Shown: positions 5,725 through 27,662, numbered from the stretch's first letter. The stretch: 29,073 bases of DNA from a virus (IMGVR_UViG_2778261396_000002), one strand, 5' to 3'. Made by a program: numbers and translations. The notes: a model not told the origin generated them from the sequence alone.

Positions 5725-6744
5725 ATGAAAAGCATATTAATTGAAAAACCGAATCAACTGGCGATTGTCGAACGTGAAATACCCACCCCGTCAGCGGGTG
5801 AAGTACGAGTAAAAGTGAAACTTGCCGGAATTTGTGGTTCAGATAGCCATATTTATCGTGGGCATAATCCTTTTGCGAAATATCCGCGCGTCATTGGTCA
5901 TGAATTCTTTGGCGTCATTGATGCAGTGGGTGACGGCGTGGAAAGCGCCAGAGTCGGTGAACGTGTTGCTGTCGATCCGGTGGTCAGCTGTGGGCATTGC
6001 TATCCGTGCTCTATAGGTAAACCGAACGTTTGTACGACACTTGCTGTATTAGGTGTGCACGCTGACGGTGGTTTCAGTGAATATGCCGTGGTTCCGGCAA
6101 AAAATGCGTGGAAAATTCCTGAAGCAGTGGCCGATCAATATGCGGTGATGATCGAACCTTTTACCATTGCGGCTAACGTTACCGGTCATGGTCAACCGAC
6201 TGAAAATGATACCGTTCTGGTTTATGGTGCCGGTCCAATCGGCCTGACGATCGTTCAGGTATTAAAAGGCGTCTATAACGTTAAAAATGTGATTGTTGCC
6301 GATCGCATTGATGAACGACTGGAAAAAGCGAAAGAGAGCGGGGCTGACTGGGCGATTAATAACAGCCAGACACCGCTTGGCGAGATTTTCACTGAAAAAG
6401 GCATCAAGCCGACATTAATTATCGATGCGGCTTGTCATCCTTCTATCCTGAAAGAGGCCGTAACGCTGGCTTCTCCAGCGGCACGTATTGTATTGATGGG
6501 CTTCTCCAGTGAACCGTCTGAAGTGATTCAGCAAGGAATTACCGGAAAAGAACTCTCTATTTTCTCTTCACGCTTAAATGCAAATAAATTCCCGGTCGTT
6601 ATCGACTGGTTAAGTAAAGGGTTAATTAAACCAGAAAAATTAATTACCCATACGTTTGATTTCCAGCATGTTGCTGATGCCATTAGTTTATTTGAACAGG
6701 ATCAAAAACATTGCTGCAAAGTCTTACTCACTTTTTCTGAATAA
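5725..6744 (+). CDS. rspB: Zn-dependent alcohol dehydrogenase-family protein RspB (339 aa)
   Basis: ORF 5701..6744; ATG 5725 after TAAGGAG gives MKSILIEKPNQLAIVEREIP…; GHEFFGV and GAGPIGL Rossmann motifs. Confidence 0.9.
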   Translation: MKSILIEKPNQLAIVEREIPTPSAGEVRVKVKLAGICGSDSHIYRGHNPFAKYPRVIGHEFFGVIDAVGDGVESARVGERVAVDPVVSCGHCYPCSIGKPNVCTTLAVLGVHADGGFSEYAVVPAKNAWKIPEAVADQYAVMIEPFTIAANVTGHGQPTENDTVLVYGAGPIGLTIVQVLKGVYNVKNVIVADRIDERLEKAKESGADWAINNSQTPLGEIFTEKGIKPTLIIDAACHPSILKEAVTLASPAARIVLMGFSSEPSEVIQQGITGKELSIFSSRLNANKFPVVIDWLSKGLIKPEKLITHTFDFQHVADAISLFEQDQKHCCKVLLTFSE

Positions 6745-11685: not shown

Positions 11686-11738
11686 GGGCGGCAGAGCAGT
11701 CACGGAGTAAAACTGATACCGCCAAACGTCACCAGAAA
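11686..11738 (-). ncRNA. dicF: DicF small RNA (53 nt; ftsZ-targeting)
   Basis: Reverse complement reads TTTCTGGTGACGTTTGGCGGTATCAGTTTTACTCCGTGACTGCTCTGCCGCCC followed by T-run, matching recalled DicF; lies between ydfC and dicB. Confidence 0.85.
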
Positions 11739-12078
11739 ATTGATAACAGAGGGCGTTGCAGCGGGGTTGTCACTTAAGCGTATGGTCAACCTGACAACCC
11801 GGTGTCCTCAACGGGGAAGGAATAACCCCGCCATACTTACCGCCGCGCCATTTCGCGGGTTGCCACAACCGGAAGCGCACGGTCGACGAAAATTTAACGA
11901 CAGGCTATCTATGAACCAGCTACCTCGCCGTGCGCTTTCGCGTTATGGTCTGACTTTTCAGGGAAATATCCTTTCAGTAAACTGTCAGTTCCGGATGCGC
12001 ACCCGTGTCCGGCGCACGCACTCCACCTCACCCGTGGAGAACTCCTTAATTACTAACCTTAGCTTTGTTGATTAGCTA

Positions 12079-13497: not shown

Positions 13498-14002
13498 ACA
13501 GGCTCGTGAGGCTCTGGATGCCTGGATATGTCGACCAGGAATGACACAGGAGCAGGCGACGATATTAATCACTGAAGCATTCTGGGCTTTGAAAGAGCGC
13601 CCGAACATCGATGTTCAGCGTGTCACAGATGAAGGTGGCGCGGTTGATCAGCGAGCGCTTGGTGTTAATCGAGTGAAGATATTCGAACGCTGGAAGGCTA
13701 TCGATACCAGGGATAAGCGTGAAAAGTTCACGGCGCTAGTGCCTGCGATTATGGAGGCTATCCGGATTAGTGATTTCAGGTTGTATCGTGAAATTACTGA
13801 CGGAAAAAGCATCACGTGCATGATCGCCGGGTTAAACAAAGAATATGGCGATGTGGTGGAGTCCGGACTGCTTTTTGCTGATCCTGCCGTAGTGGATCGT
13901 GAAACTGACGAACTTATAGAAAAAGCAATTGCTTTCAAGCTTGCGTATCGACAGCAATACCAACAAAAAGCTGGATGGAATTATGAGCCTTCTTTTTGCT
14001 GA
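13481..14002 (+). CDS. YdaT-like prophage protein (cII-position gene), 173 aa
   Basis: ORF translation MKITPEQAREALDAWICRPGMTQEQA…; position directly after cro-like gene; family assignment from memory only. Confidence 0.45.
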   Translation: MKITPEQAREALDAWICRPGMTQEQATILITEAFWALKERPNIDVQRVTDEGGAVDQRALGVNRVKIFERWKAIDTRDKREKFTALVPAIMEAIRISDFRLYREITDGKSITCMIAGLNKEYGDVVESGLLFADPAVVDRETDELIEKAIAFKLAYRQQYQQKAGWNYEPSFC

Positions 14003-14948
14003 ACGCCCACTGGTTATAAACACGCAGCTGGCAATGAAAATTGGCTTAAACGAAGCCATTGTTTTGCAACAACTGCACTACTGGTTGAGAGATACCAACT
14101 CCGGCATGGAATGTGATGGTGTTCGCTGGATTTATAACACAACGGAACAATGGCTGGAACAGTTCCCATTCTGGTCAGAGTCAACGTTAAAGCGCGCGTT
14201 TGCAAGTCTGAAAACGCTGGGGCTTTTGCGTTGTGAAAAGCTCAATAAATCAAAGCGCGATATGACCAATTTCTACACGATCAACTATGGGAGCGAGCTT
14301 TTAGATGGTGGCAAATTGAGCGAATCCATCGGTTCAAAATGCGCCGCTCCATCAGGTCAAAATGACACGATGGAAGAGGTCAAAATGAAACGCTCCATTG
14401 GTTCAAAACGACCCAATGTCATCGGGTCAAAATGGCCTGATGATCTTACAGAGAATACAACAGAGATTACTACAGAGAATAAAAACACTTTTCGTCCGGA
14501 AGCTTCGCAACCGGACCCGCAGACGACTGAACAGGATTTTTTAACCCGGAACTCCGACGCGGTTGTGTTTAGTGCGAAAAAACGCCAGTGGGGTAGCAGG
14601 GAGGATTTGGCGTGTGCGCAGTGGATCTGGGGGCGGATCGTGGGTCTCTACGAACAGGCAGCCAGTGATGATGGCGAGATCATGCGACCAAAAGAGCCTA
14701 ACTGGACTGCCTGGGCCAATGACGTGCGCACAATGCGGATGCTGGATGGCAGAAGCCACAGACAAATTTGCGAAATGTTTGGTCGGGTTCAGCGAGATCC
14801 ATTCTGGGTAAAAAACATCATGAGCCCGTCAAAGCTCCGCGAAAAATGGGACGAACTGGTCATCCGCCTGGGACGTTCACCTGTACAGCGTTGTGTTAAT
14901 CATATTTCTGAACCGGATACAGAAATTCCGCCTGGTTTCAGAGGATAA
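13983..14948 (+). CDS. Phage replication initiation protein (lambda O-like, HTH N-domain), 321 aa
   Basis: ORF 13929..14948; ATG 13983 MSLLFAERPLVINTQLAMKIGLNEAIVLQQLHYWL…; repeated SIGSK peptide motifs encoded by DNA iterons. Confidence 0.7.
   Translation: MSLLFAERPLVINTQLAMKIGLNEAIVLQQLHYWLRDTNSGMECDGVRWIYNTTEQWLEQFPFWSESTLKRAFASLKTLGLLRCEKLNKSKRDMTNFYTINYGSELLDGGKLSESIGSKCAAPSGQNDTMEEVKMKRSIGSKRPNVIGSKWPDDLTENTTEITTENKNTFRPEASQPDPQTTEQDFLTRNSDAVVFSAKKRQWGSREDLACAQWIWGRIVGLYEQAASDDGEIMRPKEPNWTAWANDVRTMRMLDGRSHRQICEMFGRVQRDPFWVKNIMSPSKLREKWDELVIRLGRSPVQRCVNHISEPDTEIPPGFRG
14327..14436 (+). repeat. Five direct iteron-like repeats (core GGT(T)CAAAA(T/C)G, ~23-bp spacing) inside the replication gene – candidate prophage origin
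   Basis: Cores at about 14331, 14355, 14378, 14400, 14424 read directly from sequence. Confidence 0.55.
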
Positions 14949-14988
14949 GTGTTGATTTCAGGTCATGAGGTAATTTTAAGGGGGACTT

Positions 14989-15411
14989 GTGGCAAAAGTT
15001 TTTACACAAGAAGAGCGGGAAAAAATTAAATGGCAGGTGGTGGAACTCGTGCGCCAGAGCGGCCGTGAGACGTTACGGCAACTGGAAGCTAAAACAGGTG
15101 CGACTAGATATCTGATGAGCGTTCTTGCCAGAGAGCTGGTAGCCAGTGGCGATGTATACAACTCCGGCTACGGGTTATTCCCCTCTGAACAGGCGCGTAA
15201 GGACTGGCAAAACGCCCGCAAAAAACTCTCGAGGGCAAAGGTGAAGAAACCTGCTGTGGTTGATCCGGACCTTATCTGGTCATCACCTGACGGAGAAATA
15301 CGTCGCTACGACAGTCGCCTAAACATAATCTGTCGCGAGTGCCGGAAGAGCGAAGTTATGCAGCGCATACTGGCTTTCTATCAGGGTAATTTTCAGGACG
15401 TGGCGCAGTGA
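14989..15411 (+). CDS. Hypothetical prophage protein (140 aa, GTG start)
   Basis: ORF with AGGGGGA SD 4-5 nt upstream of GTG; stop overlaps next gene start (GTGA). Confidence 0.45.
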   Translation: MAKVFTQEEREKIKWQVVELVRQSGRETLRQLEAKTGATRYLMSVLARELVASGDVYNSGYGLFPSEQARKDWQNARKKLSRAKVKKPAVVDPDLIWSSPDGEIRRYDSRLNIICRECRKSEVMQRILAFYQGNFQDVAQ

Positions 15412-15854
15412 GTGCACCGGCAACCATTCTTGATATGTGCTGTGGCAGCCGCATGTTCTGGTTCGATAAGTCTGACGAACGGGCGATATTCAGCGATATC
15501 AGAAAAGAAGGATACACATTACGCAATGGGAGACGCTTGATTATCAGCCCTGACATTATCGCAGATTTTCGTGCATTATCATTTGCAGACGCATCTTTTT
15601 CGATGGTTGTATTAGACCCTCCGCATCTTGAGAGTGTTGGTGATAACGCCTGGATGGGAAAGAAATATGGACGGCTGAATAAAGATGCCTGGCGTGATGA
15701 TTCGCGACAGAGATTTAAAGAAGCCTTTCGGGTGTTGAGGCCGCACGGCGTTCTGATTTTTTAATGGAATGAAACGCAAATACCGGTAAGCCAGATTCTG
15801 GCACTGACAGACAGAAAACCTGTTATCTGTCAACGAACAGGGAAAAAACGATAA
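15408..15854 (+). pseudogene. SAM-dependent (gamma-class-like amino-) methyltransferase remnant with in-frame TAA at 15762-15764
   Basis: Motif I-like LDMCCGSRMF and motif IV-like VVLDPPH; same frame continues after the TAA for 29 more codons; total still short for a DNA MTase. Confidence 0.4.
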
Positions 15855-16026
15855 AACCCACTGGATTATTTTTATGAAAGAGGCATCCAGTGAGTAGATT
15901 CGTAAGGCTACAGATACGTATATCTGAATAATTAAATTCAGTTCTGTAAATAAAATTTAATCCTTAACCGGATGGATTTCTGCACCCTCAGAACATCAGG
16001 AGGCCGCCCGAAAGGGCGGTAGTGAA

Positions 16027-16137
16027 ATGCGAAAGTTCAAAATTATTATTGAAACGGGAATAGCTGGTGGAGATTTTGAGGATGTATTCGAAGTGGACGA
16101 TGACGCAACACCTGAGGAAATTCATGACGGAGCATAA
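16027..16137 (+). CDS. Small acidic ORF (36 aa) preceded by AGGAGG and a GAAA-tetraloop hairpin
   Basis: ATG 16027 … MRKFKIIIETGIAGGDFEDVFEVDDDATPEEIHDGA*; below ORF-track size cutoff; manual translation. Confidence 0.3.
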   Translation: MRKFKIIIETGIAGGDFEDVFEVDDDATPEEIHDGA

Positions 16138-16186
16138 GAAATTTTCTTTAACTACTGCAATTACTCATACCACGAAATAAAAGACG

Positions 16187-16378
16187 ATGAGGAAGAACAA
16201 AGTGGCTGATTTTTGTTCAGCTAAATATAACATCAGTTTTGAAGAGCGGGATGAACTATTAATGGACTATGGTGAGTTACGCGGTGGAAGTGCTGCTGAT
16301 GTCGAATCCTAGCGTGATGACTATGAAGCGGGAAAAACTCCGGTCGAAGCATATTGTGATGAGTGGGGCGATGAATGA
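16187..16378 (+). pseudogene. Small ORF (63 codons) with in-frame amber TAG at 16310-16312
   Basis: MRKNKVADFCSAKYNISFEERDELLMDYGELRGGSAADVES*RDDYEAGKTPVEAYCDEWGDE*; stop overlaps next ORF start (ATGA). Confidence 0.35.
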
Positions 16379-16662
16379 GCGAGATTAATTATCAGGAAGG
16401 GCATGAAACGGCGGGGCAAGCAAAACCAGTGGCATGGCGATATCGCTACGTGAAAAAAGGCGTTACGGACTTTCAGGGGAAGTAGTGGTCTGGTGACTGG
16501 AAATATGTACCGAAAAAAGAGGATTGTAACGACAGGCCGAACTATCAAATTCAGGCCTTATTCACTGCCTCACCAGTCCCAGTTACATCAGAAGAACTGG
16601 TTAAAGCTGTGCACTTTTATGAACAACTAAAACGCGAAAATCCACCAACATCCGGCAACTAG
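16375..16662 (+). pseudogene. Small ORF (95 codons) with in-frame amber TAG at 16483-16485
   Basis: MSEINYQEGHETAGQAKPVAWRYRYVKKGVTDFQGK*WSGDWKYVPKKEDCNDRPNYQIQALFTASPVPVTSEELVKAVHFYEQLKRENPPTSGN*. Confidence 0.35.
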
Positions 16663-16916
16663 ATTAATGGATTAACTATGTCGGTTAAACGACCAGCCAA
16701 CTGAAAAAGCGGAAACCTGATTACAGGTTGCCAGATAAGGCAATGAGCTACCTGGCGCGGAACGGACTGATAAGTATGGGGAATGTTTTACGATGAACCT
16801 TTAGACTAAAGAGTTTGTAACGCTATGTAAGTGATTTTTTCTGGTTTAGATATTTATATGTCCGGCCAAATTGAGGTGTGTTTAAATGTAATTGCACATT
16901 GATTGTAGGAGGAATA

Positions 16917-17096
16917 ATGAAAAACGCATTGCAGTTTTTGTTTGTTGCGTTCTGGTTGTTCGCATCATGTATGCCCATCATCTTCACAGCAAGGTATATG
17001 GAAAAAGTTGATGTTTTGATATTAATATTTGGATATATAAATGCCCTTTTTTTAGGGGTGTTCATGGCGGTCATGTGCATTGAATACTGGCGGTAA
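16917..17096 (+). CDS. Small two-TM membrane protein (59 aa)
   Basis: AGGAGG SD at 16907-16912 then ATG 16917: MKNALQFLFVAFWLFASCMPIIFTARYMEKVDVLILIFGYINALFLGVFMAVMCIEYWR. Confidence 0.45.
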   Translation: MKNALQFLFVAFWLFASCMPIIFTARYMEKVDVLILIFGYINALFLGVFMAVMCIEYWR

Positions 17097-17430
17097 ATAC
17101 AGCGAACTCCATTGGTTTAGTTGGATATTTACTGTGCTGGACAAAAACGGTTTGCGGGGAAATCTTAGTTAAGTAGAATGACTGCGGGTGCTTGAGGCTA
17201 TCTGCCTCGGGCATGGACACCAACGGCAGATAGAGAAAAGCCCCAGTTAACATTACGCGTCCTGCAAGACGCTTAACATTAATCTGAGGCCAATTTCATG
17301 CTAGACACATGTAGGTTAGCCTCTTACGTGCCGAAAGGCACGGAGAAGCAGGCTATTGTTAACACCAAGCTGTAATGTCCCCTTTGAACCATTCTAAAAT
17401 GTCCCCAGACAATTCTCTGGGGGATTTTTC

Positions 17431-18744
17431 ATGATCAAAGAGACTGTTACGATGAGTCATAAGGAACTCCACCGACTTCAGATTATTCAGGAACAAGCTG
17501 CGGCACGCATTGGCATTTCTATTCGGCAGGTTAAACGTCTGGTGCAACGGTATAGAAATGAAGGGCCTTCTGGTCTGGTTTCCCACCGACGTGGAAAGCG
17601 TCCTAATAATTCCTTTTCTACTGAATTCAGAGCAACAGTAATTTCACTCCTCAAAGGCCGTTACGCTGATTTTGGACCTACGTTTGCGTGCGAAAAATTG
17701 CGCGAGATACACGGTTTATCTTTATCCGTTGAAACTCTCAGAAAGTGGATGATAGAAGAGGGGTTATGGCGTGAACGCCGTCGTAAAATTGCCCGTATAT
17801 ATCAACGCCGCATGCGACGACCATCTTACGGTGAACTGATCCAGATTGATGGCTCACCTCATGACTGGTTTGAAAATCGAGGCCCCAGATGTACACTGAT
17901 CGTTTTCATTGATGATGCCACCAGTGCGTTGATGGCGTTGCGTTTTGTGCCTGCTGAAACAACCCGGGCTTACATGGAAACCCTCCGGGGTTACCTTAAT
18001 GATCATGGCGTACCGCTCGCTCTCTACTCTGATAGACACAGTATATTCAGGGTAAATAACCCAGAGCGGGAAGGTGAGCTGACCCAGTTCACTCGTGCGA
18101 TAAAGACACTGGGCATCGAGCCAATCCATGCCAACAGCCCGCAGGCAAAAGGGCGGGTAGAGCGCGCCAATCAGACACTACAGGACAGGCTGGTCAAAGA
18201 AATGCGGCTTCAGAATATCAGTGATATTGAAACAGCAAATGCATGGTTGCCGACCTTTATTGAAGCCTATAACAACCGGTTCGCTACGTCGCCTCGTACT
18301 ACTGATAATGCTCATCTTGATGTGCACCATTCTGAAGAGGAACTGGGTTATATCTTCAGCCTACAGGCGAAGCGCGTTCTGTCTAAAAATCTCACTTTCC
18401 AGTACAAAAGCAGTGCGTTTCAGGTACGCAGTGAGGGCCGGGGATATCGACTTAGGCATTCGGTTGTTACTGTATGCGAGAACTTTGACGGTGAAATTAA
18501 CGTTCTGTATGACGGGAAAGCGCTGGGCTGGGAAAAGTATGTTGATGGCCCGGAGCCTATACCACTGGATGATGAAAAGAGTGTCCATGAACGAGTGGAT
18601 AATGCCCGTATTGATTTACGCTCAAAATACTATGTTAAACCTAAAGCTGACCATCCCTGGCTTACGCGCCGAACGCAAAGTCATCAGCAAGTTAAGCCCC
18701 CGAAGTTACCTAAAAAGAAGCCTGATCCCGATAAAAAAGATTGA
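17431..18744 (+). CDS. DDE transposase, integrase-core (rve) type with N-terminal HTH; ISNCY(IS1202/ISPlu15-group)- or IS481-like (437 aa)
   Basis: ORF translation: HTH (GISIRQVKRLVQRY), DDE-type core (…IQIDGSPHDW…ALYSDRHSIF…ANSPQAKGRVERANQTLQ…); family from memory. Confidence 0.8.
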   Translation: MIKETVTMSHKELHRLQIIQEQAAARIGISIRQVKRLVQRYRNEGPSGLVSHRRGKRPNNSFSTEFRATVISLLKGRYADFGPTFACEKLREIHGLSLSVETLRKWMIEEGLWRERRRKIARIYQRRMRRPSYGELIQIDGSPHDWFENRGPRCTLIVFIDDATSALMALRFVPAETTRAYMETLRGYLNDHGVPLALYSDRHSIFRVNNPEREGELTQFTRAIKTLGIEPIHANSPQAKGRVERANQTLQDRLVKEMRLQNISDIETANAWLPTFIEAYNNRFATSPRTTDNAHLDVHHSEEELGYIFSLQAKRVLSKNLTFQYKSSAFQVRSEGRGYRLRHSVVTVCENFDGEINVLYDGKALGWEKYVDGPEPIPLDDEKSVHERVDNARIDLRSKYYVKPKADHPWLTRRTQSHQQVKPPKLPKKKPDPDKKD

Positions 18745-19140
18745 AACCAAGATCGATTCGGTTGAGTGCATATCCATTCATAGGGTAGATTCTTAAGTCG
18801 CGTTTCTGGTGTTCATTTTCGGGTGGTTTGTTACTTGTTTTACCGGGGATATGCCAGAAACGCGCTGAGTCAGTCTGGGCGGTGCGCGTAATGAGGCGTT
18901 ATGGTAAATAGCCTATGCTAATGTCCGCTAAGAGCAAGAAGCGGAAGTTGGCAGTTTTGTGGACTGTCCCCACAAAAGTGACTACAGAAATAGTTGCAAT
19001 TCATAATTGATCATGGGTTGTCAGTTAAACTCGTGGCGATTTAAATAGACTAATTGGGAGTGCGTCCATTACTTATATCTTGTAATGTTAACTATCAGAA
19101 ATGATACAAAGATAATATGTCTTTAAAGAAAAGGCTGATG

Positions 19141-19166
19141 GCGAAAAGTGGCCCGATGAGGGCCAC
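19141..19166 (-). terminator. Rho-independent terminator downstream of flxA
   Basis: GTGGCCC-GATGA-GGGCCAC hairpin followed by T-run on minus strand. Confidence 0.5.
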
Positions 19167-19180
19167 AATACGGCTGTCAC

Positions 19181-19513
19181 TTAGACGTAAATATCAATGG
19201 TGCCAGCGGTATTTGTATCGTCTTTTTTCTCTTCTTTTTTATCAGGCTGAACTGTCGCGTCTTCATTCTTTTTCTCTGCCTGCTGCCTTAACAACTGCTC
19301 CAGTTGAGCCCAGAGGCTTTCAATTTGCTTCTGTACCAATGCAGCCATTTCTTTTTTCTGCTGTGTCGTCATCCCCTCTTCCGATGAGATTTTCCCAAGC
19401 TTTTCAGTCAGCACCTGAATTTGTCTTGTGATTTTGGCTATTTCTGATGTTCCTTCCGGGGCGGAGTTGTTTGAAATAACGGTTGAGGTATTTCCCTGAA
19501 TTGTGACAGACAT
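19181..19513 (-). CDS. flxA: FliA-regulated protein FlxA (110 aa)
   Basis: ORF translation MSVTIQGNTSTVISNNSAPEGTSEIAKITRQIQVLTEKLGKI… coiled-coil, Lys/Glu-rich C-terminus. Confidence 0.9.
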   Translation of the reverse strand: MSVTIQGNTSTVISNNSAPEGTSEIAKITRQIQVLTEKLGKISSEEGMTTQQKKEMAALVQKQIESLWAQLEQLLRQQAEKKNEDATVQPDKKEEKKDDTNTAGTIDIYV

Positions 19514-19536
19514 AGATTTCTCCTTTTAAAAAAGCA

Positions 19537-19564
19537 CTATCGGCATGCACAAAAAAATCTTTAA
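19537..19564 (-). promoter_or_regulatory. Sigma-28 (FliA) promoter of flxA: TAAA-N15-GCCGATAG
   Basis: Minus-strand sequence TAAAGATTTTTTTGTGCATGCCGATAG immediately upstream of flxA start. Confidence 0.6.
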
Positions 19565-19715
19565 TCGTATTTCTTGTGTCATTAATTGTTTGATGTTCAG
19601 ATTGTTTTCCTCGCGGGCTGGCGCGCCTCAGAAAGTAAAGCTTGTTGACAGGGGTAAACGTTCGGCAATAATTTTCTGCCGCATGCGGGTGTTGCATAAA
19701 ACGTGTTACGTTCCT

Positions 19716-20021
19716 TTATCGACAGGTCAGGTCACCGCTCACCAGCCGACGAGAAAGCAACACTGACATGCTAAAGCAAAAAATAGATGAATAAGTTGAG
19801 TTGTGCATATGTAGCCTGACCGTCACAAAGTATATGGTGTCTGTACCAGTAAGATGATGGCCGGACTCTTTAAAAACGAGCTGACCTGCACAATACAGGA
19901 TGGACTTAGCAATGGCTGCTCCTGGCACAAAGCGGACAGTGATCACCGTTCTTACGACTACTTTCTGACTTCCTTCGTGACTTGCCCTAAGCATGTTGTA
20001 GTGCGATACTTGTAATGACAT
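19716..20021 (-). CDS. ydfV: Hypothetical prophage protein YdfV-like (101 aa)
   Basis: ORF of the recalled YdfV length, divergent from relB; start lies inside relBE operator region. Confidence 0.45.
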   Translation of the reverse strand: MSLQVSHYNMLRASHEGSQKVVVRTVITVRFVPGAAIAKSILYCAGQLVFKESGHHLTGTDTIYFVTVRLHMHNSTYSSIFCFSMSVLLSRRLVSGDLTCR

Positions 20022-20033
20022 TTGTAATTACAA
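20010..20033. promoter_or_regulatory. relBE operator/promoter inverted repeats (TTGTAATGACATTTGTAATTACAA)
   Basis: Inverted TTGTAAT/ATTACAA elements directly upstream of relB start codon. Confidence 0.5.
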
Positions 20034-20045
20034 GAGGTGTAAGAC

Positions 20046-20285
20046 ATGGGTAGCATTAACCTGCGTATTGACGATGAACTTAAAGCGCGTTCTTACGCCG
20101 CGCTTGAAAAAATGGGTGTAACTCCTTCTGAAGCGCTTCGTCTCATGCTCGAGTATATCGCTGACAATGAACGCTTGCCGTTCAAACAGACACTCCTGAG
20201 TGATGAAGATGCTGAACTTGTGGAGATAGTGAAAGAACGGCTTCGTAATCCTAAGCCAGTACGTGTGACGCTGGATGAACTCTGA
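20046..20285 (+). CDS. relB: Antitoxin RelB (79 aa)
   Basis: ORF translation MGSINLRIDDELKARSYAALEKMGVTPSEALRLMLEYIADNERLPF…. Confidence 0.95.
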   Translation: MGSINLRIDDELKARSYAALEKMGVTPSEALRLMLEYIADNERLPFKQTLLSDEDAELVEIVKERLRNPKPVRVTLDEL

Positions 20286-20572
20286 TGGCGTATTTTCTGG
20301 ATTTTGACGAGCGGGCACTAAAGGAATGGCGAAAGCTGGGCTCGACGGTACGTGAACAGTTGAAAAAGAAGCTGGTTGAAGTACTTGAGTCACCCCGGAT
20401 TGAAGCAAACAAGCTCCGTGGTATGCCTGATTGTTACAAGATTAAGCTCCGGTCTTCAGGCTATCGCCTTGTATACCAGGTTATAGACGAGAAAGTTGTC
20501 GTTTTCGTGATTTCTGTTGGGAAAAGAGAACGCTCGGAAGTATATAGCGAGGCGGTCAAACGCATTCTCTGA
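20285..20572 (+). CDS. relE: mRNA interferase toxin RelE (95 aa)
   Basis: ORF translation MAYFLDFDERALKEWRKLGSTVREQLKKKLVEVLESPRIEANKLRGMPDCYKIKLRSSGYRLVYQVIDEKVVVFVISVGKRERSEVY…; 1-nt overlap with relB. Confidence 0.95.
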   Translation: MAYFLDFDERALKEWRKLGSTVREQLKKKLVEVLESPRIEANKLRGMPDCYKIKLRSSGYRLVYQVIDEKVVVFVISVGKRERSEVYSEAVKRIL

Positions 20573-20643
20573 ACCAAAGCATGACATCTCTGTTTCGCAC
20601 CGAAGGTGACACTTCTGCTTTGCGTTGACAGGAGAAGCAGGCT

Positions 20644-20799
20644 ATGAAGCAGCAAAAGGCGATGTTAATCGCCCTGATCGTCATCTGTTTAACCGTCATA
20701 GTGACGGCACTGGTAACGAGGAAAGACCTCTGCGAGGTACGAATCCGAACCGGCCAGACGGAGGTCGCTGTCTTCACAGCTTACGAACCTGAGGAGTAA
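20644..20799 (+). CDS. hokD: Hok-family type I toxin HokD/RelF (51 aa)
   Basis: Manual translation MKQQKAMLIALIVICLTVIVTALVTRKDLCEVRIRTGQTEVAVFTAYEPEE*. Confidence 0.9.
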   Translation: MKQQKAMLIALIVICLTVIVTALVTRKDLCEVRIRTGQTEVAVFTAYEPEE

Positions 20800-20867
20800 G
20801 AGACCCGGCGGGGGAGAAATCCCTCGCCACCTCTGATGTGGCAGGCATCCTCAACGCACCCGCACTT

Positions 20868-24063: not shown

Positions 24064-24363
24064 AAAAATTCCTTAATACTGATAACTTGGCGCACTATAC
24101 ACACGTTCCTGAAGAAAGCTATAGTTTTTTGATGGGGTTGAAGATGGCTGGATGTCTAAAATAAACATTGCTTCATATGTTCAACTATGCGTTAATGATT
24201 GCGTCGGTTTGAAGAACAGACGATATACGAAGTAGTTTACTAAAGCAGTTCTCATTTCAGGTGTTATTCACTTATTCCTTCTTTGAGTCTCTCCAATTAA
24301 GTACGAAGTCGTTTCTGTTATGCAAACCATTTATGCCGAAAGGCTCAAGTTAAGGAATGTAGA

Positions 24364-24579
24364 ATGTCAAATAAAATGACTGGTTTAGTAAAATGGTTTA
24401 ACGCTGATAAAGGTTTCGGCTTTATTTCTCCTGTTGATGGTAGTAAAGATGTGTTTGTGCATTTTTCTGCGATTCAGAATGATAATTATCGAACCTTATT
24501 TGAAGGTCAAAAGGTTACCTTCTCTATAGAGAGTGGTCCTAAAGGTCCTGCAGCAGCAAATGTCATCATTACTGATTAA
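24364..24579 (+). CDS. cspB: Cold-shock protein CspB (71 aa)
   Basis: ORF translation [71 protein letters not shown]. Confidence 0.93.
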
Positions 24580-24861
24580 AATTCATCGCTCGTCTGTATA
24601 CGATAACGAAGAAGGCTGATGCCTGAGTAGAGATACGGACAGAGTAGTGAATATTGGATCTCTTTAATAAAAAGTAAGGAGGTCCAATACATGAAACAAT
24701 GGCTAGCATATTTGGCAAAATCTTAATCAGGAAAAGTATGCTAACCATTGTGGTGAAGTGCAGGTTTGCTGCATGAATAGTTTTACAGCAGAAGCTAACT
24801 GCTGGCATGGCAAAACAAAGTGCGTAAGTGGATGACTCCCACAAAAAGCACCACAATCTCA

Positions 24862-26888: not shown

Positions 26889-27250
26889 GGTAATATTAAA
26901 TCGGAACATTTACATCGCGGAATGTAAAATTTAAATAAAAAGGACTCTTCCATGAGCCAAAATTCCTGAAATCTTAAGGGTAAGATAAAAGGTCTTAATC
27001 AGAATGACACGTTTTATTAATAAATAAAGCTATTCTTTCATTGCTGTGTTTTTCTTTACAAAAGTAATCCTTGCTATGGGTGGTTAATCATGCGTTAATG
27101 GTGTTCTGGTTTGTTACAAATTTATCTGAAGCAGTCATTGTTATAATTTTATTATTTGTACCTCTTGAGATTTCCTTGTTGGTTTTTCTCTCTGATATTT
27201 TTTTTCGGACCATTCTGCCCAAGGGCTAATTTCTTCAAAAGGTAATAATT

Positions 27251-27463
27251 ATGTCTAACAAAATGACTGGTTTAGTGAAATGGTTTAACCCTGAAAAAGG
27301 TTTTGGTTTCATCACGCCGAAAGATGGCAGCAAAGATGTGTTTGTCCATTTCTCAGCAATTCAGAGCAACGATTTCAAAACATTAACTGAGAATCAGGAA
27401 GTTGAATTTGGTATTGAGAACGGACCTAAAGGTCCTGCCGCTGTTCATGTAGTGGCGCTTTGA
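27251..27463 (+). CDS. cspI: Cold-shock protein CspI (70 aa)
   Basis: ORF translation [70 protein letters not shown]. Confidence 0.93.
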
Positions 27464-27662
27464 GGTAGACAATATTACAAACCATATTCACTTTAGATGC
27501 CCGTGTTGTCATGGTTCCCAGTATAGAACATCATCTTTTGATGTTTCTGACATGAATCCTTTCGGGGCAAAATGTATCTTTTGTAAATCAATGATGATTA
27601 CATTTGATAATATTTCACAATACTTAAATGCCAGCCGTCTGTCGTTGGATTTAAAAAAGTGA
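27453..27662 (+). pseudogene. Zinc-ribbon ORF (paralog of 24943-25113) lacking canonical start; open frame begins inside cspI 3' end
   Basis: Frame open from TAG at 27450-27452: …HFRCPCCHGSQYRTSSFDVSDMNPFGAKCIFCKSMMITFDNISQYLNASRLSLDLKK*; first in-frame ATG (27552) lies after first Cys pair. Confidence 0.35.

What the first reader, a model, noticed from the sequence alone, without database searches (positions are those of the whole stretch)
17097..17430. Hairpin-dense non-coding segment upstream of the transposase gene
About 330 bp without a credible ORF contain several perfect stem-loops. One is a 9-bp stem CTATCTGCC/GGCAGATAG (17198-17206 / 17225-17233). Another is a GCGTC-CTGCAA-GACGC hairpin flanked by 9-bp direct repeats TTAACATTA (17247-17281). 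A third is a CGTGCC-GAAA-GGCACG tetraloop hairpin (17327-17342). This could be a structured RNA (sRNA, transposase leader or antisense control element) or the terminal structure of the insertion sequence.
Basis: seen in the sequence. Interest (0 to 1): 0.5.

Follow-up and report, generated by a model that had tools for sequence, protein, structure and literature searches.

The report
Orphaned hok/Sok leader cut by transposon
The hairpin-rich stretch is the stranded front half of a known toxin-antitoxin RNA switch (hok/Sok), cut off from its toxin gene hokD by a 3.3-kb transposon that carries the classic relBE genes and that repeatedly lands on this same spot in other bacteria.

Summary
All three hairpins are real and sit at the stated coordinates. 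They are not a transposase leader or an IS end. [quoted passage not shown]

The leader contains:
- the hok promoter;
- the 5' stem-loop;
- the mok start codon at 17298;
- the antisense Sok gene, minus strand, about 17306 to 17230.

In other prophages this same leader runs directly into hokD. Here it stops after the "AT" of the hok ATG. A 3274-bp element (17357-20630) is inserted there. It has TGT...ACA inverted ends and a perfect 15-bp target duplication, GGAGAAGCAGGCTAT, at 17342-17356 and 20631-20645. hokD follows at 20644.

The element carries an ISEsa1-type transposase, flxA, ydfV and relBE. Related copies elsewhere keep transposase + relBE + ends, swap the cargo, and sit at the same nucleotide of at least 19 different hok leaders.

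The feature itself belongs to a known kind and is probably a decaying relic. The cause of its orphaning is a hok-targeting, relBE-bearing transposon that also explains the K-12 relBEF operon. I found no report of this in the searchable literature.

The parts
17152..17179 (+). hok promoter: -35 TTGCGG (17152-17157), 16-nt spacer, -10 TAGAAT (17174-17179); transcript start about 17186
   Evidence: The -10 aligns with TATAAT/TAGAAT in 11 hok loci, with A17175, A17178 and T17179 invariant. The start is inferred from position 1 of the Rfam model. Promoter activity was not tested, and the consensus scan did not call it.
17186..17356 (+). Truncated hok mRNA 5' leader (tac/ucb region, mok translation start, Sok target, hok Shine-Dalgarno and 'AT' of the hok ATG)
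   Evidence: Rfam RF01794 at 104.1 bits (gathering 59), E 7e-23, full model 1-157. It is 92-98% identical to leaders that run straight into hokD/hokW in L002-L004 and phage 933W.
17187..17244 (+).
   Evidence: Inverted repeat I5. It is in the consensus structure of 10 leaders, with 5 pairs kept through changes on both sides.
17230..17306 (-). Sok antisense RNA gene (5' end about 17306, 3' end 17230-17236; 71-77 nt), overlapping the mok SD and AUG
   Evidence: Mapped by alignment from annotated sokC and sokB of K-12 and from the 71-nt sokW of phage 933W. All three place the 5' end at 17305-17306.
17240..17290 (-). Sok terminator hairpin followed by UUUUCUCU.
   Evidence: -26.6 kcal/mol on the minus strand against -16.8 on the plus strand. 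It forms in the minus-strand MFE. The stem is conserved in 10 loci with 4 compensatory pairs. hokD/hokW-type loci carry an 18-20-nt insert that lengthens it.
17313..17341 (-). Inferred Sok promoter: -10 TAACCT (complement of 17313-17318), 17-nt spacer, -35 GTGCCT (complement of 17336-17341; TTGCCT in intact loci)
   Evidence: Inferred from its position relative to the mapped Sok 5' end. The A->C change at 17341 alters the first base of the -35; IAI1 and intact loci keep A. The consensus scan did not call it.
17298..17375 (+). Truncated mok reading frame (MLDTCRLASYVPKGTEKQA + IVNTKL*), ending at a TAA inside the transposon's left repeat
   Evidence: In intact L004 the same ATG opens a 70-aa Mok-HokD in-frame ORF. 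mokW of 933W starts at the homologous base.
17327..17342 (+). GAAA-tetraloop hairpin just upstream of the hok SD. On the other strand it overlaps the spacer and -35 of the inferred Sok promoter.
   Evidence: Read. It is in the MFE fold and in the consensus structure of the leaders as a 3-pair stem.
17342..17356 (.). Left copy of the 15-bp target-site duplication GGAGAAGCAGGCTAT (hok SD to 'AT' of the ATG)
   Evidence: the repeat finder D6: perfect 15-mer at 17342-17356 and 20631-20645. It is present once in the uninterrupted loci L002-L004.
17357..20630 (+). 3274-bp ISEsa1-family transposon: left repeat, transposase, flxA, ydfV, relB, relE, right repeat
   Evidence: It is absent from the otherwise collinear loci L002-L004. 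The ends match at 22 of 30 positions and read TGT...ACA. Sister elements of 2261-7694 bp have the same ends and the same relBE.
17357..17406 (+). Left terminal inverted repeat TGTTAACACC... with two ATGTCCCC boxes at element positions 19-26 and 43-50. The right end mirrors this with GTGTCACC and GATGTCAT at the same positions.
   Evidence: (D3). The layout matches IS1202-family ends as described in PMC10132070 and in 10.1101/2022.12.17.520857.
17402..17423 (+). Terminator-like hairpin followed by a T-run. Its 3' arm contains the GGGGGA that would serve as the transposase SD, 7 nt before the ATG at 17431.
   Evidence: 8 pairs, 5 G-C, then ATTTTTC. A role as a shield against read-through from the hok promoter is inferred.
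17431..18744 (+). Transposase, 437 aa, ISEsa1 type. It has a 9-codon in-frame deletion after 17490. The annotated 'ydfW' (18595-18744) is its C-terminal 49 codons.
   Evidence: NCBIfam NF033594 at 456 bits (cut-off 250). It is 97.9% identical to 'IS1202-like element ISEsa1 family transposase' on plasmids. The deletion is seen against L014/L015 and the 3301-bp copies.
19181..20021 (-). Variable cargo of this copy: flxA (19181-19513) and ydfV (19716-20021)
   Evidence: Annotation of the identical locus L001. Sister elements carry other genes in this position.
20046..20572 (+). relB (20046-20285) and relE (20285-20572): the conserved right-hand module of the element
   Evidence: RelB and RelE are at least 92% identical and sit about 60 bp from the right end in every complete element found. 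The 713-bp right module is 93-99% identical across elements.
20601..20630 (+). Right terminal inverted repeat ...CTTCTGCTTTGCGTTGACA
   Evidence: The same sequence ends the elements in L012, L014, L015 and L024.
20631..20645 (.). Right copy of the 15-bp target duplication. It supplies the SD and 'AT' of the hokD start codon.
20644..20799 (+). hokD (relF) toxin ORF: the 3' half of the split locus
   Evidence: Pfam HOK_GEF at 82.9 bits. It is the same protein accession, WP_000813254.1, as the HokD that directly follows the leader in L002 and L004.
20825..20862 (+). fbi-like 3' element complementary to the leader's 5' end (17186-17213)
   Evidence: Duplex of -35.2 kcal/mol; 7 of 500 shuffles reach it. 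The naming follows the R1 hok mRNA model and is my own knowledge.

Best explanation
Window 17186-17356 is the stranded 5' regulatory half of the prophage hokD/Sok type I toxin-antitoxin locus.

In the intact ancestor, the + strand gave the hok mRNA: promoter at 17152-17179 and a folded leader. mok translation started at 17298 and was needed for translation of hok at 17355. Sok pairs with the mok start region, blocks toxin synthesis and marks the duplex for RNase III.

An ISEsa1-family transposon (17357-20630) then inserted between the T and the G of the hok ATG and duplicated the 15 bp GGAGAAGCAGGCTAT. The promoter, leader, mok start and Sok gene stayed on the left. The hokD ORF, with a regenerated SD and ATG and with the 3' fold-back element, ended up 3.29 kb away behind the transposon's own relBE genes. 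That is the relBEF operon known from K-12.

The hairpin region therefore no longer controls a toxin. It can at most yield a Sok RNA and a short hok-leader transcript that runs into the transposon end, where a terminator-like hairpin (17402-17423) sits in front of the transposase gene.

Shown here: the identity of the RNA elements, the split, and the insertion with its duplication. Inferred: promoter activity, present-day transcription, and the read-through barrier.
For: Identity of the RNA elements:
- Rfam RF01794 full-length hit at 104.1 bits against a gathering score of 59.
- 92.2% identity over 217 nt to phage 933W, where sokW, mokW and hokW are annotated at the homologous bases.
- hokW-sokW is experimentally a type I TA (PMC8621323).
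- Sok ends mapped from sokC and sokB agree with the sokW mapping.
- Compensatory changes support the 5' stem (5 pairs) and the Sok terminator (4 pairs) across 10 loci.
- The terminator hairpin is 10 kcal/mol more stable on the Sok strand.

The split:
- Three uninterrupted prophage loci match the window to 17356 and resume at 20630, overlapping by 15-16 nt. There the leader is followed at once by the same HokD protein, then by rem in L004 and ydfU/DUF968 in all three.
- Perfect 15-bp direct repeat.
- Inverted ends match at 22 of 30 positions and read TGT...ACA.
- The leader's 5' end is complementary to a segment just downstream of hokD.

The mobile element:
- Complete sister elements with the same ends, transposase and relBE, but different cargo, sit in other hok loci. 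Direct repeats are 15 bp (IncHI2-type and IncFII-type loci), 16 bp at one site and about 13 bp in Kluyvera.
- One copy in the opposite orientation abuts the reverse complement of the same 15-mer (L023).

Decay:
- K-12 has deleted window 13761-18559.
- This lineage has a change in the inferred Sok -35 and a 27-bp deletion in the transposase.
- Many strains carry further IS insertions in this stretch.
Against: - No expression data were available, so whether Sok or the leader is still made here is unknown.
- The sigma-70 consensus scan called neither promoter. Both assignments rest on alignment to annotated relatives.
- The 5'/3' complementarity is only moderately better than shuffles (7 of 500).
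- RNAalifold on the + strand recovered the 5' stem and the tetraloop stem but not the middle hairpin, which shows up only on the minus strand.
- The region is 100% identical in several hundred genomes. That reflects shared ancestry and says nothing for or against function.
Confidence: 0.9

Rival explanations
1. The orphan is kept because it is useful. A free-standing Sok gene acts in trans as an antidote ('anti-addiction') against hokW/hokD-type toxins of incoming or co-resident lambdoid phages and plasmids.
For: - The Sok gene with its terminator is structurally complete.
- It is 92-98% identical to the Sok of intact loci.
- Genomes hold a median of 2 and up to 11 matches to the leader region, which include other hok leaders, so targets probably co-occur.
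- sokW supplied in trans counteracts HokW (PMC8621323).
Against: - K-12 lost the whole segment without known consequence.
- This lineage carries a substitution in the first base of the inferred -35.
- No signal of selection could be measured, because the copies are nearly clonal.
Confidence: 0.15
2. The hairpins are a cis-regulatory leader of the transposase: an attenuator or translational control element, or a binding site for an antisense RNA that controls transposition.
For: - The hok promoter points into the element, so a read-through transcript would carry these hairpins upstream of the transposase ORF.
- Antisense control of transposases is known, for example in IS10 (my own knowledge).
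Against: - The element's repeat starts at 17357.
- Copies of the same transposase gene elsewhere have other leaders or unrelated flanks (13 of 37 flank clusters are not hok).
- The hairpins are conserved in loci that have no transposon at all.
- A terminator-like hairpin lies between them and the transposase ATG.
Confidence: 0.03
3. The segment is the terminal structure of the insertion sequence, or sequence that the IS picked up and carries along.
For: Many plasmid copies of ISEsa1 show a hok-leader piece next to the left repeat. At first sight this looks like a shared IS end.
Against: - Those leaders differ from one another (about 74-93% identity) right up to the junction, while the IS end is identical.
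- The leader here is contiguous with about 650 bp of prophage sequence shared with uninterrupted loci.
- The target duplication lies outside the repeat.
Confidence: 0.02

Closest known systems
hokW-mokW-sokW of Stx phages 933W / Sp5
   Same: The leader is 92.2% identical over 217 nt. sok, mok and hok start at the homologous bases. Both sit in the early/nin region of a lambdoid prophage, and both have the extended Sok terminator. The system is experimentally a type I TA and aids phage release (PMC8621323).
   Different: Here the toxin ORF is not attached. The locus is cut after 'AT' of the hok ATG, and mok ends after 25 codons in the transposon end.
hok/sok (parB) of plasmid R1 and Rfam family RF01794
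   Same: Same architecture: 5' stem-loop, mok start inside the Sok target, antisense Sok with a terminator hairpin, a tetraloop hairpin before the hok SD, and complementarity between the 5' end and the 3' region. Full-length Rfam match.
   Different: The leader belongs to a chromosomal/prophage subfamily in which mok is in frame with hok. The Sok terminator has an 18-20-nt insert. This copy is incomplete. The Rfam model is written in the sense of hok mRNA, so its '+' hit does not give the strand of Sok.
hokD (relF) of the E. coli K-12 relBEF operon
   Same: It is the other half of the same locus. The HokD ORF at 20644-20799 is the protein that follows this leader in uninterrupted prophages. 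K-12 matches the window at 99.9% from 18560 onward.
   Different: K-12 has deleted 13761-18559. It therefore shows neither the leader nor the left end of the transposon. By my recollection of Pedersen & Gerdes 1999 (not in the searchable library), hokD was described simply as lacking its upstream regulatory elements.
K-12 hokA, hokC and hokE loci flanked by IS150/IS186
   Same: These are chromosomal hok loci associated with insertion sequences. IS186A lies next to hokC.
   Different: Those IS sit downstream of the reading frame (my own knowledge, and for hokC). They are unrelated to ISEsa1. They show no common insertion nucleotide in the SD-ATG interval and bring no TA module.
ISEsa1 and the IS1202 family (ISfinder; Harmer & Hall 2023; Siguier/Chandler preprint 2022)
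   Same: Transposase of NCBIfam ISNCY_2 type, 97.9% identical to plasmid 'ISEsa1 family' proteins. TGT...ACA ends with a second conserved box near position 20. A long duplication, as in the ISTde1 subgroup (15-17 bp).
   Different: ISEsa1 is listed as 1609 bp with 15/22 TIR and no detectable TSD. Here complete units are 2.3-7.7 kb and end in relBE plus a distal repeat. Most have 15-16-bp duplications. No duplication fits a 1.6-kb unit in 167 loci. The family's known targeting is to XerC/D (dif-like) sites by the 5-bp subgroup only, whereas this element targets the hok SD-ATG.
Tn3-family transposons with integral toxin-antitoxin modules; Tn7-type site-specific insertion
   Same: A TA pair is a fixed part of a transposon next to an end. 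Insertion is site- and orientation-biased into a sequence found mostly on mobile DNA. These are resemblances recalled from memory.
   Different: The transposase family is different, the target is different, and no accessory targeting protein is evident. Nothing was tested here beyond sequence anatomy.

Membership tests
[quoted passage not shown] | hok mRNA leader matching the curated covariance model (RF01794) above its gathering score | tested here: met
   104.1 bits against 59, model 1-157 complete, E 7e-23.
[quoted passage not shown] | Conserved leader secondary structure supported by compensatory changes | tested here: met
   5' stem: 5 pairs with changes on both sides among 10 loci. Folding z-score -4.66.
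[quoted passage not shown] | Antisense Sok gene on the opposite strand, overlapping the mok SD/AUG and ending in an intrinsic terminator | tested here: met
   Mapped from annotated sokC, sokB and sokW to 17306 -> 17230/17236. A hairpin followed by UUUUCUCU on the minus strand. 4 compensatory pairs.
[quoted passage not shown] | mok reading frame that overlaps hok or is fused to it | tested here: not met
   The start codon at 17298 is conserved, but the frame ends after 25 codons at a TAA (17373-17375) in the transposon repeat. The intact relative has a 70-aa Mok-HokD frame.
[quoted passage not shown] | Hok/Gef toxin ORF directly downstream of the leader | tested here: not met
   No Hok ORF follows 17356. 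The HOK_GEF ORF lies at 20644-20799, beyond the 3274-bp insert. The window therefore holds a split locus, not a complete one.
[quoted passage not shown] | 3' fold-back element complementary to the mRNA 5' end | tested here: inconclusive
   17186-17213 pairs with 20825-20862 at -35.2 kcal/mol, reached by 7 of 500 shuffles. The partner now lies on the far side of the insert.
[quoted passage not shown] | Sok RNA is expressed and represses toxin synthesis | not testable with these tools
   No transcript data. The inferred -35 is TTGCCT in intact loci but GTGCCT here.
   For 17097-17356: the repeat begins at 17357 and the target duplication (17342-17356) lies outside it. For 17357-17430 the feature is met.
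ISEsa1-type element (IS1202 family) for the insert 17357-20630 | DDE transposase of the ISNCY_2/ISEsa1 type next to the left end | tested here: met
   NF033594 at 456 bits (cut-off 250). 97.9% identity to annotated ISEsa1-family transposases. It carries a 9-aa deletion, so activity is doubtful.
ISEsa1-type element (IS1202 family) for the insert 17357-20630 | Imperfect terminal inverted repeats, TGT...ACA, with a second box near position 20 | tested here: met
   22 of 30 positions match. Boxes ATGTCCCC / GTGTCACC lie at positions 19-26 and again at 43-50.
ISEsa1-type element (IS1202 family) for the insert 17357-20630 | Direct target duplication, and an empty site known elsewhere | tested here: met
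   Perfect 15-bp repeat. The 15-mer is single in L002-L004. Sister copies have their own 13-16-bp repeats.
ISEsa1-type element (IS1202 family) for the insert 17357-20630 | Size and content as listed for ISEsa1 (1609 bp, transposase only, no TSD) | tested here: not met
   The units bounded by repeats and duplications are 2261-7694 bp and always include relBE. No duplication fits a unit of about 1.6 kb in 167 loci.

The most novel reading that the evidence does not exclude
The hairpin region is the footprint of an unrecognised site-specific transposon family. In this family an ISEsa1 transposase at the left end and the relBE toxin-antitoxin pair at the right end bracket exchangeable cargo. The element homes to the 15 bp from the Shine-Dalgarno sequence to the start codon of hok genes, which lie mostly on plasmids and prophages.

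Three things would follow:
- The textbook E. coli relBEF operon is a chimera of a transposon and its target.
- The 'missing' hokD regulatory half survives 3.3 kb upstream in non-K-12 strains.
- ISEsa1 as catalogued (1609 bp, no duplication) is only the left module of the real element.
Probability: 0.75. Interest if true: 0.7.

Novelty: new member of a known kind. Interest (0 to 1): 0.5.

Why it matters
For the finding itself, an unannotated structured segment now has an explanation. RefSeq lists no feature under it. It is a hok/Sok leader with a probably intact Sok gene but no toxin attached, and should not be read as a new sRNA or an IS control element.

The context has three wider consequences:
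- It explains a long-standing oddity: hokD (relF) sits without its regulatory region behind relBE.
- It places one of the most studied toxin-antitoxin pairs, relBE, inside a mobile element whose ends and target can now be stated to the nucleotide.
- It gives a candidate natural system for sequence-specific insertion into plasmids and phages, with a defined 15-bp target.

The context also suggests that one addiction module (relBE) spreads by disabling the regulation of another (hok/Sok).

Tried and rejected
- A permissive Rfam search (E up to 10) of 16600-19200 gave only the sok hit, a meaningless snoRNA match and a weak reverse-strand echo.
- The sigma-70/terminator scan of 17000-17500 found no promoter. 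Its only terminator-like site is inside the transposon end.
- The upstream 72-aa ORF (16878-17096) has no Pfam match. It was not pursued.
- I first suspected a conventional IS of about 1.6 kb ending near 18950-18990. The right ends of plasmid copies proved heterogeneous, with no duplication. No 15-nt repeat fits a 1.6-kb unit in 167 loci. I dropped this idea in favour of the distal repeat at 20601-20630.
- RNAalifold on the + strand did not recover the middle hairpin. It appears on the minus strand.
- Literature searches for sokD/mokD, and for ISEsa1 together with hok or relBE, found nothing relevant. One search failed on a syntax error.
- Pedersen & Gerdes 1999 is not in the searchable library, so statements about it rest on my memory.

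Full report
**1. Observation**

The 9-bp stem is 17198-17206 / 17225-17233. The GCGTC-CTGCAA-GACGC hairpin (17257-17272) lies between two TTAACATTA copies (17247-17255, 17273-17281). CGTGCC-GAAA-GGCACG is at 17327-17342. The repeat finder extends the first stem to 20 nt per arm (I5).

As RNA, 17186-17357 folds to -64.5 kcal/mol against -46.1 +/- 4.0 for shuffles (z -4.66). The opposite strand of 17225-17330 gives z -3.9. The ORF list shows nothing credible.

**2. What it is**

A gathering-threshold Rfam scan of the whole window gives a full-length match of family RF01794 ('sok') at 17186-17357, + strand, 104.1 bits against a threshold of 59 (alignment). The model ends in GGAG...AUG, so it is written in the sense of the hok mRNA. 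It does not tell the strand of Sok.

The window is a Qin-type lambdoid prophage of E. coli. It contains DicF, two cspA-type leaders, flxA, relBE and hokD.

Searching the 334-nt interval against 5,426 complete E. coli genomes shows two patterns. The whole interval occurs in 511 genomes. In other genomes only bases 1-260 match, at about 84-98%, and there they lie directly upstream of genes annotated hokD or Hok/Gef.

I fetched three such loci. The leader is followed at once by HokD, with the same protein accession as the HokD of this prophage in two of them. rem follows in L004, and ydfU/DUF968 follows in all three.

BLAST of these loci against the window matches up to 17356 and resumes at 20630, with a 15-16-nt overlap. 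The hairpin region and hokD (20644-20799; Pfam HOK_GEF) are therefore two halves of one locus.

**3. Anatomy of the leader**

I aligned 11 leaders: this one, three intact prophage loci, K-12 hokC and hokB, and five plasmid or chromosomal loci. The alignment shows an invariant -10 (TAGAAT, 17174-17179) and a nearly invariant 5' end, GGGTGCTTGAGGC, from 17186.

Annotated antisense genes map onto the window consistently:
- sokC and sokB of K-12 map to 17230-17306 and 17230-17305 on the minus strand.
- Phage 933W is 92.2% identical over 217 nt. Its annotated 71-nt sokW, mokW start and hokW start fall at window 17236-17306, 17298 and 17355.

The two TTAACATTA copies are the arms of a long stem that pairs through G-U on the minus strand. 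The segment folds to -26.6 kcal/mol on the minus strand against -16.8 on the plus strand, and is followed by UUUUCUCU.

Across ten loci the terminator stem keeps four pairs through double changes. The hokD/hokW type carries an 18-20-nt insert that lengthens the stem. The 5' stem has five such compensatory pairs.

The tetraloop hairpin precedes the hok SD. On the other strand it overlaps the position expected for the Sok -35. Intact loci and IAI1 read TTGCCT there, while this window reads GTGCCT because of A->C at 17341. That same change creates the two outer pairs of the 'perfect' stem.

The mok frame opens at 17298 and, in intact loci, runs in frame into HokD for 70 aa. Here it stops after 25 codons.

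The leader's 5' end is complementary to 20825-20862, just beyond hokD (-35.2 kcal/mol; 7 of 500 shuffles). This fits the fold-back pairing of hok mRNAs known from R1 (my own knowledge).

**4. What split the locus**

A perfect 15-bp direct repeat, GGAGAAGCAGGCTAT, lies at 17342-17356 and 20631-20645 (D6). It is single in the uninterrupted loci.

Between the two copies lie 3274 bp. The ends are TGTTAACACCAAGC... and ...GCTTTGCGTTGACA. They match at 22 of 30 positions as inverted repeats, read TGT...ACA, and have matching internal boxes at positions 19-26 and 43-50.

The first gene is a transposase:
- NCBIfam ISNCY_2 at 456 bits.
- 97.9% identical to plasmid proteins named 'IS1202-like element ISEsa1 family transposase'.

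The annotated ydfW is the in-frame C-terminal 49 codons of this transposase. Then come flxA, ydfV, relB and relE.

K-12 MG1655 is 99.9% identical from 18560 onward but has deleted 13761-18559. It therefore lacks the leader, the left repeat and most of the transposase.

**5. The element elsewhere**

I scanned three collections with the 26-nt left end. Together with loci already held, this gave 167 loci with usable flanks.

Findings on complete copies:
- 63 loci have the conserved right end within the DNA held.
- Complete copies measure 2261-7694 bp.
- All of them carry RelB and RelE at 92% identity or more, about 60 bp from the right repeat.
- The middle differs: flxA-ydfV here; an IS110-type element, a cytochrome b and a CDF transporter in a 6093-bp plasmid copy; two membrane transporters and a LysR regulator in a Kluyvera copy.
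- The transposase module is conserved only to window 18939-18960, about 1.6 kb, and the relBE-end module from 19911-19918.

ISfinder's ISEsa1 is given as 1609 bp, TIR 15/22, 'no TSD detected' (Harmer & Hall 2023). In my sample no 15-nt repeat fits a 1.6-kb unit (0 of 167). Of 76 loci with at least 3.4 kb of downstream DNA, 54 have the distal repeat. I conclude that the catalogued IS is the left module of a larger transposon. This is an inference from anatomy; transposition was not observed.

**6. Target choice**

The left repeat abuts a hok leader after the AT or ATG of the hok start in many different loci. The flanking leaders differ from each other right up to the junction, whereas the element end is identical.

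Rfam confirms full-length hok leaders ending at the repeat in seven loci, six of them distinct leader sequences.

I clustered 162 left flanks at 95% identity, which gives 37 groups:
- 19 groups have a hok-leader HMM hit.
- 5 more carry the GGAG...AT target without the full leader. These include a tandem arrangement (right repeat, 15-mer, left repeat; L100) and one copy in the opposite orientation whose flank is the exact reverse complement of GGAGAAGAAGGCCAT (L023).
- 13 groups are unrelated sequences.

Independent duplications are:
- GGAGAAGCAGGCTAT (Qin);
- GGAGAAGAAGGCCAT (IncHI2-type and IncFII-type hok loci);
- GGAGATGTATGGGTCC (16 bp);
- GATGTTAGCCATG (13 bp, Kluyvera);
- GGATTCACGACGGAT / GGATTCACAGCGGAT (a non-hok site).

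Hok leaders occupy a negligible share of these genomes, so this points to target specificity. Both published treatments of the IS1202 family report targeting only for the 5-bp subgroup, at XerC/D sites. Neither links ISEsa1 to hok or relBE. My searches found no paper that does, and no 'sokD'.

**7. How it works now**

The hairpins belong to a regulatory unit that has lost its toxin. If its promoters still fire, the locus makes a Sok RNA and a short hok-leader transcript. That transcript would run into the transposon end, where an 8-bp hairpin plus T-run (17402-17423) also sequesters the transposase SD. The barrier role is inferred.

hokD keeps an SD and an ATG only because the duplication regenerated them. 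It is co-transcribed with relBE in K-12 (PMC3598666).

Signs of decay are:
- the -35 substitution;
- the 27-bp in-frame deletion in the transposase;
- the K-12 deletion;
- frequent secondary IS insertions in other strains.

A trans-acting protective role for the orphan Sok is possible, because sokW works in trans. It is untested.

**8. Verdict**

Its interpretation is partly right: this is a structured antisense-control RNA. It is wrong in linking that RNA to the transposase or the IS end. The feature is a member, incomplete and unannotated, of a well-known family.

What is new lies in the cause of the orphaning. A relBE-bearing ISEsa1-family transposon with a 15-bp duplication homes to the hok start region. 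This also accounts for the relBEF operon of K-12.

Noticed in passing
window 17402-17423 (+): An 8-bp G+C-rich hairpin followed by ATTTTTC lies inside the transposon's left end. Its 3' arm contains the likely transposase SD, 7 nt before the ATG at 17431. It looks like a shield against transcription entering from outside, here from the hok promoter.
   Followed up: partly
window 17490/17491, inside the transposase gene: This copy lacks 27 bp (9 codons, ES.NRHITQ) in the N-terminal HTH region compared with the 3301-bp copies (for example E. coli IAI1, L007) and with plasmid copies. The transposase here is probably inactive.
   Followed up: partly
window 17341: An A->C change is specific to this lineage (also in strain W5-6 and a Shigella flexneri genome). 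IAI1 and all intact hok loci have A. The change weakens the inferred Sok -35 (TTGCCT -> GTGCCT) and lengthens the tetraloop stem by two pairs.
   Followed up: partly
window 18595-18744: The annotated small protein YdfW is simply the last 49 codons, in frame, of the ISEsa1-type transposase ORF. In K-12 it is all that remains of that gene.
   Followed up: yes
window 13761-18559, compared with K-12 (L005): K-12 MG1655 has a 4.8-kb deletion here. It removes replication-region genes, the hok leader, the left target repeat, the left transposon end and most of the transposase. This is why the transposon cannot be recognised in K-12.
   Followed up: yes
window 20625-20630 and 17371-17376: The right tip of the element is a perfect outward-facing -35 (TTGACA). 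The left end has TGTAAT at element positions 15-20. If the ends are joined in a circular intermediate with a 2-4-bp gap, they would form a strong junction promoter, as proposed for other IS1202-family members.
   Followed up: no
L100 (metagenome contig OLJC01000099.1), about 11690-11755: A right end, then a single 15-mer GGAGAAAAAGGCTAT, then a left end. This is either two elements in tandem sharing one target copy or a product of recombination. It suggests the duplicated 15-mer can itself be hit again.
   Followed up: no
L146 (viral contig) and L012 (Enterobacteriaceae MGYG-HGUT-00110): Complete elements sit at non-hok sites. L012 has a 15-bp repeat with 2 mismatches. L146 shows only a 6-bp repeat (CGCCTT). 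A second duplication length for the same element would be unusual and is unexplained.
   Followed up: no
L006, L031, L033, L080, L096 and others: A recurrent alternative junction, GGAG(A/T)TGTATGGGTCC, lies next to the left end. In L033 it is duplicated as a 16-bp repeat around a 7694-bp element, and the sequence beyond it is not a typical hok ORF. It also occurs behind two different upstream contexts, so recombination between elements has probably shuffled flanks.
   Followed up: partly
L027 (Kluyvera sp. STS39-E) 6628-6741 (-): There is an Rfam isrO (RF01397) hit at 58.8 bits directly against the left repeat of an element at a non-hok site.
   Followed up: no
L178 (Escherichia phage PhiR42_1 from ECOR13, PV340562.1): A 48.7-kb record deposited as a complete phage genome carries the same orphan leader (100% identical), followed by transposase, flxA, ydfV, relBE and a hok-type gene in the same order. 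A full-length Qin-type phage with this insertion may still be inducible.
   Followed up: no
window 11686-11737 (-), 24203-24595 (+), 27105-27490 (+): Other Rfam hits in the window are the DicF antisense RNA (76.7 bits) and two cspA-type thermoregulator leaders (154 and 113 bits). These are expected parts of a Qin-type prophage.
   Followed up: no
window 16878-17096 (+): A 72-aa strongly hydrophobic ORF ends one base before the finding. It has no Pfam match, but the DNA is conserved upstream of intact hokD loci (L002 matches from 16710).
   Followed up: no
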